From Escherichia coli (lineage in GTDB: Bacteria; Pseudomonadota; Gammaproteobacteria; Enterobacterales; Enterobacteriaceae), in assembly GCF_030013205.1 (NCBI RefSeq), contig NZ_CP122648.1: DNA of 64,000 bases; one strand, written 5' to 3'. Positions within the stretch are counted from its first letter, which is position 1; each line of letters starts with the position of its first letter. The position numbers were made by a program. Positions 10,301-16,300 of this stretch are shown piece after piece.

Positions 10301-13300
10301 CGCGCTTACCTGCATCACTTTATCTTCCGGCATTCCGGCCTCTTCCAGCACCCGACGGGCCGAAAGCGCGCGATCGCCCGAAAGGTTCCAGTTGTTGTAG
10401 ATATTGTTTTTGTAGGCCATCGCATCGGTATGCCCGGTAATAATAATTTTGTTATCGAGCGAGTCGAACACTGGCGCGAGCTCCACCAGCAAAGTTTTAA
10501 AGAACGGCATAATCTGCGCGCTGCCGCGTTCAAACATATTGCGGTTCTGGTCATCTTTAATCAGCACGCGTAATCCCTGCGGGACAATCTCCATCTCCAG
10601 ATTCGCTTCCATATGTGCATCACGGGCAATGGTGTTGATACTGGTTGCCAACTCGCCAAGCTCGGTGGCGGATTTCTTCTTCAGCAGCGCCGGTTTCTCA
10701 TTCACATCACGCGCTTTTTTCTCCGTCTCTTCCGGCACCGCCACGGTGGCAGGTTTTGGCGGATGAGACGGGCTGATTTTATTTAACGGCGACAGCCCAC
10801 CACCGTTAAAAATCGACTGCCCGTGCAGCGCGGCGATAATGCTTTCACGCTCGGATTTACTGACGCTGTTGACAATCAACTTTATTGTCGTCACCAAAGG
10901 GGCCGAGCGTATTTCCGAGGTTTCTGCCCGCTTTACCCTGGACGCGATGCCTGGCAAACAGATGGCGATTGACGCCGATCTTAACGCCGGGTTGATCAAC
11001 CAGGCGCAGGCGCAAACCCGGCGTAAAGATGTTGCCAGCGAGGCCGATTTCTACGGCGCGATGGACGGGGCATCGAAGTTTGTGCGCGGGGATGCCATCG
11101 CCGGGATGATGATTCTGGCGATCAACCTGATCGGCGGCGTCTGTATCGGGATCTTCAAATACAACCTGAGCGCCGATGCCGCCTTCCAGCAATATGTGCT
11201 GATGACCATCGGCGACGGCCTGGTGGCGCAGATCCCTTCCCTGCTGCTCTCCACCGCGGCGGCGATTATCGTCACCCGCGTCAGCGACAACGGCGATATC
11301 GCCCATGACGTGCGCCACCAGCTGCTGGCAAGCCCGTCGGTGCTCTACACCGCTACCGGAATTATGTTTGTGCTGGCGGTGGTGCCGGGGATGCCGCATC
11401 TGCCGTTTTTGCTGTTCAGCGCCCTGCTTGGTTTTACCGGCTGGCGGATGAGCAAACGCCCGCAGGCGGCGGAGGCGGAAGAGAAAAGCCTCGAAACACT
11501 GACCCGCACTATCACTGAAACCCGCGAGCAACAGGTCAGTTGGGAAACCATTCCGCTGATCGAGCCTATCAGCTTAAGCCTTGGCTACAAGCTGGTGGCA
11601 CTGGTGGATAAAGCGCAGGGGAACCCGCTCACCCAGCGGATTCGCGGCGTGCGGCAGGTGATATCCGACGGTAACGGCGTACTGCTGCCGGAGATCCGTA
11701 TTCGGGAAAACTTCCGTCTCAAGCCCAGCCAGTACGCCATTTTCATCAACGGCATAAAGGCTGATGAAGCGGATATTCCGGTGGATAAACTGATGGCGCT
11801 GCCCTCCAGCGAAACCTACGGCGAGATTGACGGCGTGCTGGGGAACGACCCGGCGTACGGGATGCCCGTGACCTGGATTCAGCCTGCGCAGAAAGCGAAG
11901 GCGCTGAATATGGGGTATCAGGTGATCGACAGCGCCAGCGTGATTGCTACCCATGTGAACAAGATTGTGCGCAGCTATATTCCTGATTTGTTTAACTATG
12001 ATGATATTACTCAGCTGCATAACCGTTTATCGTCGATGGCTCCACGGCTGGCGGAAGATTTGAGCGCGGCGCTGAATTACAGCCAGCTGCTGAAAGTGTA
12101 CCGCGCGCTGCTGACCGAAGGCGTTTCCCTGCGCGATATCGTCACTATCGCCACCGTGCTGGTTGCCAGTAGCGCGGTGACCAAAGATCATATTCTGCTG
12201 GCGGCAGATGTGCGCCTGGCGCTGCGGCGCAGCATTACCCATCCGTTCGTTCGCAAGCAGGAGCTGACGGTGTATACGCTGAATAATGAGCTGGAAAATC
12301 TGCTGACCAACGTGGTGAATCAGGCGCAACAGGCCGGCAAAGTGATGCTCGATAGCGTGCCGGTGGACCCGAATATGCTCAACCAGTTCCAGAGCACGAT
12401 GCCGCAGGTGAAGGAGCAGATGAAAGCGGCGGGGAAAGACCCTGTGCTGCTGGTGCCGCCGCAGTTGCGTCCTTTGCTGGCGCGTTATGCAAGGTTGTTT
12501 GCGCCGGGGCTGCATGTGCTGTCGTATAACGAAGTGCCGGACGAGCTGGAGTTGAAGATTATGGGGGCGTTGAGTTGATTGAGGAATCTTTTCCATGCTT
12601 TGCAGCACCTGACACCATTAATTGACGTCACACTGCAAAGAGACTACGATGACACCATACAATGATGTCATGGATTGATAGTATGATTAAGGTCAGCGCG
12701 CTAGGCTCTCGTCATAGAAAAACATTCGACGATGTAATGACGGAGCCGCCAAAATCTGGAATTAAATGGGATGATGTTGTTGCACTCATTAAAGCTGTGG
12801 GTGGAACAATAAAAAATAACAACGGCTCCAGACGAAAATTTCAGATTGGAACGACCAAATTCAGCACACATGAGCCACATCCAAAGAATGTGATGGATAA
12901 AGGCGCAGTAGCAGGTCTTAAGGAGTGGTTTGTTAACTGTGTAGGGGTAGATTATGAATAAAGCATCGAACATTATCACAATTAAAGGTCAACCAGCCGC
13001 AGTGACATTTGAAGCCGATATCAACGCATTTCGCGGCAAGTTCCTCAATGTAAACGGTTATTGTGACTTTGTAGCCACAAGTATTGAGGCATTATATCGT
13101 GAAGGCGAAAGCGCGCTGGATGAGTGGATGGCGGATTGTGAAGAGGACGGTATTGCCCCTTTTCGTGAAGAAGAAGAGCAAAAACGCCTGACGCTTCGTG
13201 TTCCTCATCACATTGATTCGCGGCTGACCATCGTCGCCAGACAACATTCCATTTCAAAAAACCAGCTCATTGTTGATGTCTTAGAACGTGAGTTTTCAGC

Positions 13301-16300
13301 CCAGATGTAAACAGGTCGGATGCCGCGTGGCATCCGACCTTTTGCCAGTTCGTCAATATTACCCATTTACAAAATCGTCTCTTCCGTCAAAATCCGGCGC
13401 GCGCCTAAAAAATGGTCCTGCCAGAAAGGTTCAGCTAACCGACTTACCCGTATGGTTTCCCCGGTGCGCGGCGACTCAATAAACTGTCCATCGCCCAGAT
13501 ACACGCCCATATGGTCGGCAATCTCGCGGCTGTGGATATGAAAAAACAGCAAATCTCCCCGGCGCAGGTCGTTATTCGCCACAATGGTTGCCCGGCGATA
13601 GTGATACATCTCATTAGCCGTGCGTGGGAGCTTCGCCTCGAGGATCTTGTTGTAGGCATAAAAAACCAACCCGCTACAGTCGAAGCCTTGATCGGGCCGC
13701 GTGCCGCCCCAGACGTAAGGCTTGCCAAGCTGCTGCTCCAGGCGGTGAATCGCCACTTCGGTGATGTTGTGTAGATGGTCGCTGCTTAAGAAATGGTTGT
13801 TCTCCGCCAGCGCCTGCCAGCGTCTGTCACTTGCCTTGAGCGGCGCAGGAAACCATTCTGGATGCTGTTTTATCTGTTCGCGGTTGTGCTGGCGCAGCGC
13901 CTTTCTGCTTTCGGCATTGCCTTCCACAATATAGCTGGCCTGTTTTTTCAGATGGGTTTGGTACTGTTTTAATAAACGCGCACGGTTTTGCATCCGCTGG
14001 CGGGCGGCGTAGCTGAAAGAGATATGTGATGTGGTGGCGCTGGCGAGTAAAGGGAGCAAAACGCATAACGAAAACACGCCTGGATGCAGAAATCTGCCGA
14101 GCAAGAACGAAGACATGAAGGACATAAACCGGCTGAATGAAGGTGAGAATTTTAAAAGACCAGAGGAGTAAACGGGATTATTAATTGCTTATTTGCATAT
14201 TACTATTGAGGTTTCATAATCTTAGGAAATAAATGATACATGCGCTTTTCGGACTATTGAAAACTGCCCCTGTGCTAAATTTGTAAACCCTGCGCCGACA
14301 GGCTTGCGTAAAACTCTTTTGGTGATAATGTGAGCCTTCCCAATCCAGACTATTCCGATTTGGGATCCATTTTGCCGTCCTGGCGTGTGTAACCGTTTTA
14401 TCAAGGAATAAGCAGTATGCGTAAAATCGCATTAATTCTTGCGATGTTGTTGATCCCGTGCGTTTCGTTTGCCGGTTTGCTGGGCAGCAGTAGCTCGACC
14501 ACGCCAGTGAGCAAAGAGTATAAGCAGCAGTTGATGGGATCCCCTGTCTACATCCAGATCTTCAAGGAAGAACGTACACTCGATCTCTACGTCAAAATGG
14601 GCGAGCAATATCAACTGCTCGACAGCTATAAAATCTGTAAATATTCCGGCGGCTTAGGGCCAAAACAGCGTCAGGGCGATTTCAAAAGCCCGGAAGGGTT
14701 TTATAGCGTCCAGCGTAATCAGTTAAAACCAGACAGCCGTTACTACAAAGCGATTAATATTGGATTCCCCAATGCCTATGACCGTGCGCATGGTTATGAA
14801 GGGAAATATCTGATGATCCACGGCGATTGTGTTTCCATCGGCTGCTACGCGATGACCAATCAGGGTATTGATGAGATCTTCCAGTTCGTTACTGGTGCGC
14901 TGGTTTTTGGTCAGCCGAGCGTGCAAGTGAGTATTTACCCGTTCCGCATGACCGACGCCAATATGAAGCGCCATAAATATTCCAACTTTAAGGACTTCTG
15001 GGAGCAACTGAAACCGGGCTACGACTACTTTGAGCAAACCCGTAAGCCACCGACCGTTTCTGTGGTCAATGGCCGTTACGTGGTCAGCAAGCCGTTAAGC
15101 CACGAAGTTGTGCAACCACAGCTGGCATCAAACTACACGCTCCCCGAGGCAAAATAAGCGCCATTCGCCTGGCATAATCTTTTGCCAGGTTTCATTGCCC
15201 GTCAGCGGCTGTGTCGCAATCACCGTGACCACATCATTCGGTGTGGTCTGCGAGCTGAAGTCGATTTCCACATCCTGATCCAGCAACGTTGCCACGCCAA
15301 ACGGCGCGCGGCGGGTGATCCAGTGTAAATTAGTCGAGCAATACGCCATTACATAGCGCCCGTCAGAAAGCAGCATGTTGAAAACGCCCTTCTGCCGCAG
15401 TTCATCCGCCAGTGAGGCGATATATTTAAACACTGCCGCCATGTTGCCCGGTGTGCGCGGGTAACGCTGCGTTAATTTATGCAGGAGCCAGCAGAAGGCT
15501 TTTTCGCTGTCGGTTTCACCGACCGGGCGGAAGTTGCCGGTTTCCAGTGATTTGTATCCCGTCAGTTGTCCGTTATGGGCATAAGTCCAGTTACGCCCCC
15601 ATAACTCGCGGGTAAACGGGTGAGTATTTTCCAGCGCCACCTCGCCCCGATTCGCCTGGCGAATATGAGCCACCACCGAACAGGATTTTATCGGGTAGTC
15701 CTGGACAAGTTTGGCGATGGGGGAATTAAAGCTGGGTTGCGGATCTTTAAATGTGCGACAGCCTTTACCTTCGTAAAAGGTAATGCCCCAGCCATCTTTA
15801 TGTGGCCCGGTTCCACCACCACGCTGTACAAGTCCGGTGAAACTAAAGCAGATATCGGTAGGGACGTTGGCGCTCATCCCGAGCAATTCGCACATAGGTA
15901 ACCTCCACAACAGCGGGAGCGCATGGCCCCCGGCGAAGATTGATTTAAGTATTTTCAGGTCGGATGCGGCGTAAACGCATTATTCGGCCTACGCCAGACT
16001 TACTTAACCATCTCTTTTTCAATTAACTGGATCAGGATATGGATCACTTTAATGTGGATCTCCTGAATGCGGTCGGCATAACCAAAGTGCGGTACGCGAA
16101 TTTCGATATCCGCTGTGCCAGCCATTTTACCGCCGTCTTTACCGGTCAGGGTGATCACTTTCATCCCCTTCTCACGCGCCGCCGCGATCGCTTTGATCAC
16201 GTTTGCAGAGTTACCGGAGGTGGAGATCCCCAGTAGTACATCGCCTTCGCGACCTACCGCTTCAACGTAACGGGAGAAAATATCGTTGAAACCAAAATCG

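What the first reader, a model, noticed from the sequence alone, without database searches (positions are those of the whole stretch)
12579..13345. HicA/HicB-like pair where K-12 carries rayT, with an atypical HicA motif
Two overlapping plus-strand ORFs sit between the lfhA remnant and yafL. The downstream product has a HicB-like N-terminal region and a C-terminal RHH (RLTLRVPHHIDSRLT...). The upstream product shows a HicA-like pattern but has GSRRKF where canonical HicA has a conserved His (GSHH/GSNH), so it may be inactive or a variant nuclease. Its start codon is ambiguous (Met at 12662, 12683 or 12737, none with a strong SD).
Basis: partly seen in the sequence, partly recalled or inferred. 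Interest (0 to 1): 0.5.

Follow-up and report, generated by a model that had tools for sequence, protein, structure and literature searches.

The report
Known hicAB toxin-antitoxin, histidine-shifted HicA clade
This is a real, already annotated HicA/HicB toxin-antitoxin operon found in about a quarter of E. coli strains where K-12 has rayT; its toxin belongs to a large HicA branch that has arginine in place of the usual catalytic histidine and a conserved histidine on the neighbouring strand.

Summary
Two overlapping plus-strand genes, hicA (12683-12961) and hicB (12954-13310), fill the gap between the lfhA remnant and yafL, where K-12 has rayT. Pfam, PHROGs, structure prediction and fold search all identify HicA and HicB.

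It is not new. RefSeq names both proteins, and this exact HicA is listed as a Class 4 hicAB in Gerdes 2024 (Table S1).

The start-codon question is settled at 12683. All full-length relatives start MIK/MIN/MIQ and are 92 aa. The upstream ATGs lie inside an operator box.

The "GSRRKF" point is correct: R50 aligns with the catalytic His24/His28 of solved HicA toxins. However, this is the rule in a large clade, where position 50 is Arg in 74 of 101 sequences and His in one. That clade has near-invariant H63 and H66. H63 is absent from canonical HicAs and should lie directly across the beta-hairpin from residue 50.

hicA is under strong purifying selection in E. coli (dN/dS about 0.03 or less). 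About 110 genomes keep hicB alone. This argues for an active toxin, probably with a relocated catalytic histidine, rather than a dead one. Toxicity itself is untested.

A conserved promoter carries four TGACGTCA-like boxes, the probable HicB operators.

The parts
12574..13367 (.). Cassette that replaces the rayT/REP segment of K-12, bounded by the lfhA' stop and the yafL stop
   Evidence: The pairwise alignment with K-12 loses homology at about 12573 and regains it at about 13368. The hicAB form is in 1369 of 5426 complete E. coli genomes and rayT in 3569.
12610..12630 (+). Putative HicB operator O1 (boxes 1 and 2: TGACACCA-N5-TGACGTCA), overlapping the -35
   Evidence: Direct repeat D1. Relatives L004 and L005 carry TGACGTCA-N5-TGACGTCA at the same position. 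The motif at up to 3 mismatches occurs 3 times in the 64 kb window against 0.18 expected. HicB binding is inferred, not shown.
12622..12650 (+). Sigma-70-like promoter: TTGACG, 17 nt spacer, TACGAT
   Evidence: Consensus scan. The same -35 TTGACG and a -10 (TAGAAT or TAAAAT) sit in the same place relative to the boxes in L004 and L005. The promoter is not mapped experimentally.
12650..12670 (+). Putative HicB operator O2 (boxes 3 and 4: TGACACCA-N5-TGATGTCA), covering the likely transcription start and the ATGs at 12662 and 12665
   Evidence: Spacing from O1 is 40 bp here and 41-42 bp in the relatives.
12672..12675 (+). Weak ribosome-binding site (GGAT) for hicA
   Evidence: Read from the sequence. 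GGAT lies 8-9 nt upstream of the ATG in L004 and L005 as well.
12683..12961 (+). hicA, 92 aa (RefSeq WP_000598760.1). Predicted elements are an N-terminal helix (9-19), alpha1 (29-38), beta1 (42-45), beta2 (50-55), beta3 (58-63) and alpha2 (73-87). Key residues are G48-S49-R50, H63, P65 and H66.
12943..12947 (+). Ribosome-binding site (AGGGG) for hicB, 6 nt before its ATG and inside the end of hicA
   Evidence: Read from the sequence. Translational coupling is inferred from the 8-nt overlap.
12954..13310 (+). hicB, 118 aa (RefSeq WP_001030484.1). The N-terminal beta-beta-beta-beta-alpha domain spans residues 7-65 and the C-terminal ribbon-helix-helix spans about 79-117.
13307..13345 (.). GC-rich hairpin followed by TTTT, between the convergent hicB and yafL genes; a likely terminator
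   Evidence: Inverted repeat I1. Predicted folding energy is -27.1 kcal/mol with z = -5.3. The strict terminator scan did not call it because the T run has only 4 T.

Best explanation

**Proposed mechanism**
- One sigma-70 promoter (TTGACG, 17 nt, TACGAT) drives both genes.
- HicB, probably as a dimer of dimers, or the HicA-HicB complex, binds four TGACGTCA-like boxes that flank the -35 and cover the -10 and start region. This represses the operon (inferred).
- hicA has a weak ribosome-binding site. hicB has a good one and overlaps hicA by 8 nt, so antitoxin should be made in excess (inferred).
- The N-terminal domain of HicB binds and masks HicA.
- Free HicA is a small dsRBD-fold RNA-binding toxin that most likely cuts RNA (inferred).

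**The active site**
- HicA belongs to a large clade that has an extra N-terminal helix and lacks the canonical catalytic His at the start of beta2. It has Arg50 there instead.
- The clade has a near-invariant His63 at the end of beta3, plus His66 in the family-wide P-H motif.
- In the predicted two-residue hairpin (strands 50-55 and 58-63), His63 is the cross-strand neighbour of residue 50. I propose that the catalytic histidine has moved one strand over, with Arg50 helping to bind phosphate.

**Shown:** homology, predicted fold, operon layout, conservation pattern, purifying selection and the conserved promoter boxes.

**Inferred:** toxicity, RNase chemistry, the role of H63, and HicB binding to the boxes.
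For: **Family identity**
- Pfam HicA_toxin and HicB match, as do the PHROG 'toxin' and 'HicB-like antitoxin' families.
- RefSeq annotates both genes.
- The exact protein is listed as Class 4 hicAB in PMC10865869 Table S1.

**Fold**
- The HicA model has pLDDT 97 with alpha-beta-beta-beta-alpha plus an N-terminal helix. Its best PDB fold matches are HicA chains 6G26_E/F, 1WHZ and 6HPB_A.
- The HicB model has pLDDT 85.5. Its best matches are HicB chains 6G26_A/B, 4P7D, 4P78_A, 6U0I and 6HPB_B, plus the RHH proteins AmrZ, CopG and Arc.

**Active site**
- The clade profile aligns GS-R50 onto GS-H24 of B. pseudomallei HicA and GS-H28 of HicA3.
- In 101 clade members, position 50 is R in 74 and H in 1, position 63 is H in 97, and position 66 is H in 100. 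The single GSH member lacks both H63 and H66.
- Seven canonical HicAs have T, V, P or A at the H63 column.
- Published work places the P-H histidine close in space to His24 (PMC3969222).

**Selection**
- Between E. coli alleles hicA has dS 0.19 and dN 0-0.005.
- dN/dS is 0.10-0.22 against relatives at about 64% identity.
- About 110 genomes keep hicB alone, with hicA cleanly removed. No hicA-only allele appeared in the sampled ranking.

**Regulation**
- Paired TGACGTCA-N5-TGACGTCA elements 40-42 bp apart surround the same -35 and -10 in three loci that share only about 64% protein identity.
- The motif is enriched in the window, with 3 matches against 0.18 expected.
Against: - No member of this Arg50/His63 clade was found with tested toxicity or RNase activity in the papers I could search.
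- In every characterised HicA the His that is missing here is essential (PMC12297915; PMC11594946; PMC3969222).
- Arg50 is not invariant (74%), so it cannot be essential.
- The H63-R50 contact is deduced from the secondary-structure string of a predicted model, not measured on coordinates.
- NCBIfam and PADLOC have no model that matches.
- Sequence matches to solved HicAs are weak: E about 1e-3 with a profile and none with the single sequence.
- The absence of hicA-only alleles rests on a 40-row sample of 1479 hits.
Confidence: 0.6

Rival explanations
1. HicA here is catalytically dead but still useful. It would be an RNA-binding or HicB-binding partner kept as a co-repressor, so that the pair works as a small autoregulated regulator rather than a poison-antidote module.
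For: - The His needed for toxicity in all tested HicAs is absent (PMC12297915).
- Purifying selection shows a function but not which function.
- HicB has a DNA-binding domain and conserved operator-like boxes.
Against: - Two other histidines at the same end of the sheet are near-invariant across a very diverse clade. This is hard to explain for a mere binding partner.
- The clade sits on plasmids, phages and variable chromosomal slots, as addiction modules do.
- Partial alleles keep hicB and lose hicA. This asymmetry is expected when the lost gene is harmful on its own.
Confidence: 0.15
2. HicA is toxic without cutting RNA. It would bind and sequester double-stranded or ribosomal RNA through its positively charged dsRBD surface and the extra N-terminal helix, with Arg50 serving binding only.
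For: - The fold is a dsRNA-binding domain.
- Conserved basic residues include R/K at 12, 13, 50, 52 and 73.
- The canonical catalytic His is lost.
Against: - H63 and H66 are more conserved than any basic residue (97% and 99% against 74% for R50). That pattern suits chemistry better than charge-based binding.
- No HicA is known to act this way (review PMC11594946).
Confidence: 0.15
3. The ORFs are chance reading frames or a decaying remnant with no function.
For: - The hicA ribosome-binding site is weak.
- NCBIfam has no matching model.
Against: - Both proteins have significant profile hits and high-confidence predicted folds.
- 361 diverse relatives were found.
- dN/dS is about 0.03 or less.
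- The promoter architecture is conserved in distant loci.
- Intact copies are present in 1369 genomes.
Confidence: 0.01

Closest known systems
Burkholderia pseudomallei HicAB (PDB 4C26, 6G26)
   Same: - Best sequence-profile and fold match for both proteins.
- hicA lies before hicB, and HicB has an N-terminal partial RNase H-like domain plus a C-terminal RHH.
- The G-S turn before beta2 and the P-H motif after beta3 are conserved.
   Different: - The B. pseudomallei toxin is about 60 aa, with no N-terminal helix and with catalytic His24. Here the toxin is 92 aa, with an extra helix, Arg50 at that position and His63 where B. pseudomallei has Thr37.
- Sequence identity is only about 18%.
- HicB here is shorter (118 against about 135 aa).
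Yersinia pestis HicA3-HicB3 (PDB 4P78, 4P7D)
   Same: - RHH-type HicB that represses its own promoter through palindromic operators.
- GS turn in the toxin (review PMC11594946).
   Different: - HicA3 uses His28 (GSH).
- hicA3 and hicB3 are separated by 174 bp, whereas here the genes overlap by 8 nt.
E. coli K-12 HicAB (b4532/b1438, PDB 6HPB)
   Same: Same family and gene order, and the same host species.
   Different: - K-12 HicB has an HTH domain (Class 3) rather than an RHH.
- K-12 HicA is 58 aa with His23.
- It sits at a different locus.
- The two systems are too distant to find each other by single-sequence search.
Class 4 hicAB of Gerdes 2024 (mBio, PMC10865869)
   Same: - This exact HicA (UIV62394.1) and a HicB differing by one residue are listed there as Class 4 with an RHH domain.
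- The paper notes that Class 4 splits into two clusters on the HicA tree.
   Different: The paper never discusses catalytic residues: there are no occurrences of 'His', 'histidine' or 'active site'. The Arg50/His63 signature of one cluster is therefore not described there.

Membership tests
HicA toxin family (Pfam PF07927, dsRBD-like) | Significant match to a HicA sequence profile | tested here: met
   - PF07927: E 7.7e-7, 29.6 bits, residues 36-84.
- PHROG 8887 'toxin': E 2.4e-20.
- Clade profile against B. pseudomallei HicA: E 1e-3.
- NCBIfam has no model that matches.
HicA toxin family (Pfam PF07927, dsRBD-like) | alpha-beta-beta-beta-alpha double-stranded-RNA-binding-domain-like fold | tested here: met
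   The AlphaFold2 model has pLDDT 97, with H29-38, E42-45, E50-55, E58-63 and H73-87 plus an extra helix at 9-19. The top Foldseek PDB hits are HicA chains (TM 0.61-0.64 on the target, rmsd 2.3-2.9 A), but E-values are weak at 0.25. This is a prediction, not a solved structure.
HicA toxin family (Pfam PF07927, dsRBD-like) | Conserved Gly(-Ser) in the beta1-beta2 turn (Gly22 of B. pseudomallei HicA, needed for toxicity) | tested here: met
   G48 and S49 are present. They are conserved in 99 and 98 of 101 clade members respectively.
HicA toxin family (Pfam PF07927, dsRBD-like) | Catalytic histidine at the start of beta2 (His24 in B. pseudomallei, His28 in Y. pestis HicA3, His23 in E. coli K-12) | tested here: not met
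   R50 occupies that column, and only 1 of 101 clade members has His there. The protein is therefore a homologue of HicA but cannot be filed as a HicA with the canonical active site.
HicA toxin family (Pfam PF07927, dsRBD-like) | Growth arrest or RNA cleavage on expression, neutralised by the cognate HicB | not testable with these tools
   Only indirect evidence is available: purifying selection and hicB-only alleles.
HicB antitoxin family | N-terminal partial RNase H-like (beta-rich plus one long helix) toxin-binding domain | tested here: met
   The model shows E7-10, E13-20, E25-30, E38-41 and H44-65 with pLDDT about 90. Foldseek gives probability 0.98-1.00 to HicB chains 6G26_A/B, 4P7D_A, 4P78_A and 2DSY. 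Pfam PF15919 did not match; only PF05534 did.
HicB antitoxin family | C-terminal DNA-binding domain (RHH or HTH) | tested here: met
   - PF05534 covers residues 60-110.
- An Arc-like repressor PHROG matches residues 72-115 (E 6e-5).
- The model has helices at 85-97 and 102-117 after the RLTLRV strand segment.
- Fold matches to AmrZ, CopG and Arc have probability 0.85-0.99.
HicB antitoxin family | Binds palindromic operators in its own promoter | tested here: inconclusive
   Four TGACGTCA-like boxes around the -35 and -10 are conserved in layout in three distant loci and enriched over chance. Binding itself was not and cannot be tested here.
Class 4 hicAB operon (Gerdes 2024) | Bicistronic operon with hicA upstream of hicB, and HicB carrying a C-terminal RHH | tested here: met
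   Gene order and the 8-nt overlap are confirmed, as is the RHH. The exact HicA sequence is listed as Class 4 in Table S1.

The most novel reading that the evidence does not exclude
The Arg50/His63 clade of HicA, to which this E. coli toxin belongs, is an active RNase whose catalytic histidine has migrated from the start of beta2 to the cross-strand position at the end of beta3, with the vacated site usually filled by Arg. This would be an undescribed active-site variant shared by hundreds of annotated 'HicA family toxins' on chromosomes, plasmids and phages. In the library I could search, none of the characterised HicAs belongs to this clade.
Probability: 0.45. Interest if true: 0.4.

Novelty: already known. 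Interest (0 to 1): 0.2.

Why it matters
As a locus it adds little. The pair is already named in RefSeq and catalogued in the literature, and it is one of two common alternative cassettes at a known variable spot of the E. coli chromosome.

The useful point is narrower. Reviews describe the beta2 histidine as the highly conserved catalytic residue of HicA. A large, widely spread HicA clade lacks it and conserves a different histidine next to it.

If that clade is toxic, the accepted picture of the HicA active site is incomplete. Predictions of "inactive" toxins based on the missing His would then be wrong. E. coli offers an easy test system, because K-12 naturally lacks this pair.

Tried and rejected
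- **Single-sequence searches of HicA and HicB against PDB sequences.** HicA gave no hit at E<=10, and HicB gave only chance hits to importin and VapC30. A clade profile was needed.
- **NCBIfam and PADLOC.** Neither has a matching model.
- **Rfam scan of 12300-14500 at E<=1.** It found nothing.
- **Terminator scan.** It did not call the hairpin after hicB because the T run is short. Folding shows the hairpin is very stable.
- **Search for an experimentally tested member of this clade.** The P. aeruginosa, S. meliloti, gonococcal, B. pseudomallei, Y. pestis and S. pneumoniae toxins are all canonical GSH types. P. putida HicA2 (PP_3900) is toxic, but I could not obtain its sequence, so its type is unknown. 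The ExPEC PPECC42 hicAB study is not in the library, so I cannot say which hicAB it deleted.
- **Alternative starts at 12662 and 12737.** Both were considered and rejected: 12662 lies in operator box 4, upstream of the conserved GGAT, and is absent from the relatives. 12737 is an internal Met18 within the conserved N-terminal helix region.
- **Fusing HicA and HicB to model the complex.** I did not do this. The tool returns no coordinates, so contacts could not be read.

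
Full report
**1. What is in the sequence**

Between the stop of the truncated lateral-flagellar gene lfhA (ends 12578) and the stop of the minus-strand yafL (13367) lie two plus-strand ORFs. They run 12662/12683-12961 and 12954-13310 and overlap by 8 nt.

The same 901 bases occur at 100% identity in several swine E. coli chromosomes. There RefSeq annotates the two genes as 'type II toxin-antitoxin system HicA family toxin' (WP_000598760.1, starting at the equivalent of window 12683) and 'HicB family antitoxin' (WP_001030484.1).

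K-12 MG1655 has rayT, with its REP repeats, between yafL and lfhA'. A pairwise alignment shows that homology stops at about 12573 and resumes at about 13368. The whole intergenic cassette is therefore exchanged, stop codon to stop codon.

Among 5426 complete E. coli genomes:
- 1369 carry the hicAB cassette;
- 3569 carry rayT;
- about 110 carry only the hicB half.

**2. Family assignment**
- The upstream protein hits Pfam HicA_toxin (E 7.7e-7) and PHROG 8887 'toxin' over its full length (E 2.4e-20).
- The downstream protein hits Pfam HicB (E 4e-10, residues 60-110), PHROG 9151 'HicB-like antitoxin' and an Arc-like repressor family.
- NCBIfam and PADLOC have no matching model.
- AlphaFold2 with a 101-sequence alignment gives a HicA model of pLDDT 97. 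It has an extra N-terminal helix (9-19) followed by alpha(29-38)-beta(42-45)-beta(50-55)-beta(58-63)-alpha(73-87).
- The best PDB fold matches for that model are HicA chains 6G26_E/F, 1WHZ, 6HPB_A and 4C26. E-values are weak, as expected for a 60-residue domain.
- The HicB model (pLDDT 85.5) has a four-strand-plus-long-helix N-terminal domain and two C-terminal helices after the RLTLRV segment.
- Its best matches are HicB chains 6G26_A/B, 4P7D, 4P78_A, 6U0I, 2DSY and 6HPB_B, and for the C-terminus AmrZ, CopG and Arc.

**3. Already known**

The exact 92-aa HicA sequence, with a HicB differing by one residue, appears in Table S1 of Gerdes 2024 (mBio, PMC10865869). It is listed as UIV62394.1/UIV62393.1, Class 4: hicAB with HicB carrying a C-terminal RHH.

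**4. Start codon**

Ten relatives at 58-88% identity are 92 aa long and start MIK, MIN or MIQ. RefSeq uses the same ATG.

A GGAT lies 8-9 nt upstream of this ATG in the window and in two loci whose proteins are only about 64% identical. The ATGs at 12662 and 12665 fall inside a conserved operator-like box (see section 7). Met at 12737 is residue 18, inside the conserved N-terminal helix region. The start is 12683.

**5. The 'atypical motif'**

A full scan of 1.84 billion cluster representatives found 361 relatives at E<=1e-3. In an alignment of 101 of them, the near-invariant positions are P22, G40, G48, S49, H63, P65 and H66.

A profile of this alignment finds B. pseudomallei HicA (E 1e-3) and Y. 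pestis HicA3 in the PDB without gaps across the core. It places G48-S49-R50 on G22-S23-H24 (Ala in the deposited mutant) and on G-S-H28.

These histidines are the residues shown by mutagenesis to be essential for toxicity or RNase activity (PMC3969222; PMC11594946; PMC12297915).

It is, however, a clade-wide trait:

| Position | Residue counts in 101 clade members |
|---|---|
| 50 | Arg 74, His 1 |
| 63 | His 97 |
| 66 | His 100 |

The one member with GSH (P0166) lacks both H63 and H66. In a joint alignment, seven canonical HicAs have Thr, Val, Pro or Ala at the H63 column, while H66 corresponds to the family-wide P-H motif.

In Gerdes' table the strings HRPHP, HKPHP and HEPHP occur 46 times, against 318 occurrences of GSH. 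That paper does not mention histidines at all, although it notes that Class 4 splits into two clusters.

**6. Active or dead?**

The predicted strands 50-55 and 58-63 are joined by a two-residue turn. The clade consensus for that turn is N-G. Residue 50 therefore pairs across the hairpin with residue 63, and their side chains point to the same face.

Butt et al. note that the P-H histidine (their residue 40, H66 here) is close in space to His24. In the gonococcal toxin H40A stayed toxic. H63 is thus the clade-specific candidate for a relocated catalytic residue.

Selection data point the same way:
- Between the window and two other E. coli alleles, hicA shows 10 synonymous and 0-1 non-synonymous differences (dS 0.19, dN at most 0.005).
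- Against relatives at about 64% identity, dN/dS is 0.10-0.22.
- The roughly 110 partial alleles keep hicB and lose hicA.
- In NZ_CP070134.1 the -10, boxes 3 and 4, the ribosome-binding site and the hicA ATG remain and run in frame into hicB.
- No hicA-only allele appeared in the 40-row spread sample.

I conclude that an active toxin is more likely than an inactive one. Toxicity and RNase activity remain untested for this clade in everything I could read.

**7. Regulation**

A promoter-like site, TTGACG-17-TACGAT, lies at 12622-12650. Two copies of a 21-nt element flank it:
- 12610-12630, TGACACCATTAATTGACGTCA;
- 12650-12670, TGACACCATACAATGATGTCA.

A Salmonella IncFII plasmid (L004) and a metagenomic contig (L005) encode HicA proteins about 64% identical to this one. 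In both, the same place holds two copies of TGACGTCA-N5-TGACGTCA, 41-42 bp apart. The first overlaps a -35 TTGACG and the second starts right after a -10 (TAGAAT or TAAAAT).

Searching the window for that motif at up to 3 mismatches gives 3 hits, two of them here, against 0.18 expected. By analogy with RHH-type HicBs, these four boxes are the probable HicB operators (PMC10865869 section 7; PMC11594946). Binding is inferred.

hicB has a good ribosome-binding site (AGGGG, 6 nt upstream) inside the end of hicA. A stable hairpin (-27 kcal/mol, z -5.3) followed by TTTT separates the operon from the convergent yafL. No Rfam family matches the region.

**8. Spread of the clade**

Relatives occur on Salmonella, Enterobacter, Piscirickettsia, Deinococcus and rhizobial plasmids. 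They also occur in Ralstonia and Burkholderia phages and in variable chromosomal positions, usually with an adjacent HicB (PF05534).

**9. Verdict**

The residual interest is that a large, uncharacterised HicA clade lacks the textbook catalytic histidine and conserves a neighbouring one instead.

My confidence is about 0.95 that this is a hicAB operon. It is about 0.65 that HicA is an active toxin. It is about 0.45 that H63 is the relocated catalytic residue.

Noticed in passing
window 14126-14416: yafL and dpaA (yafK) are direct neighbours here, about 290 bp apart, whereas K-12 has the dinJ-yafQ toxin-antitoxin pair between them. dinJ-yafQ is present in 3317 of 5426 complete E. coli genomes. 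This strain therefore lacks one toxin-antitoxin pair and has another about 1 kb away. I did not test whether the two states are linked.
   Followed up: partly
L006 2416-2847 (NZ_CP070134.1), equivalent to window 12579-13310: About 110 E. coli genomes carry hicB alone. The hicA coding region is gone, but the -10, boxes 3 and 4, the ribosome-binding site and the hicA ATG remain and read in frame into hicB (MMKTRLLISQASNII...). RefSeq starts this hicB at an ATA codon.
   Followed up: partly
window 12683-13310 compared with L007 and L008: Between the same pairs of strains, hicA differs at 10 synonymous sites (dS 0.19) while hicB is identical or nearly so (dS 0-0.026). The operon looks mosaic, with a recombination break near the hicA/hicB junction.
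   Followed up: no
window 12574-13367: Strains with this cassette lack rayT at its usual place. rayT, the REP-associated transposase, is found in 3569 of 5426 genomes and hicAB in 1369. I did not check whether rayT sits elsewhere in hicAB strains, or how their REP content differs.
   Followed up: no
window 13313-13340: The hairpin after hicB (GGTCGGATGCC GCGT GGCATCCGACC) shares the CGGATGC..GCGTG string with the REP copies that flank rayT in K-12, visible in the alignment. It may be a REP relic reused as a terminator. This was not tested.
   Followed up: no
window 46307-46327: A third near-match (3 mismatches) to the TGACGTCA-N5-TGACGTCA operator motif, TGGCTTCATTGATTAACGTCA. It is probably chance, and its context was not examined.
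   Followed up: no
L004 3696-4191 (Salmonella plasmid pHL21C): On an IncFII conjugative plasmid, the related hicAB (64% HicA identity) sits next to a colicin lysis gene and a bacteriocin immunity gene, and near a partition gene. This context is typical of plasmid maintenance modules.
   Followed up: no
NZ_AP023206.1 390257-390532: A 404-kb E. coli record typed as a plasmid carries a 100% identical hicA, and Gerdes' table labels this pair 'hicAB (plasmid)'. Almost all copies, 1476 of 1479, are nevertheless chromosomal.
   Followed up: no
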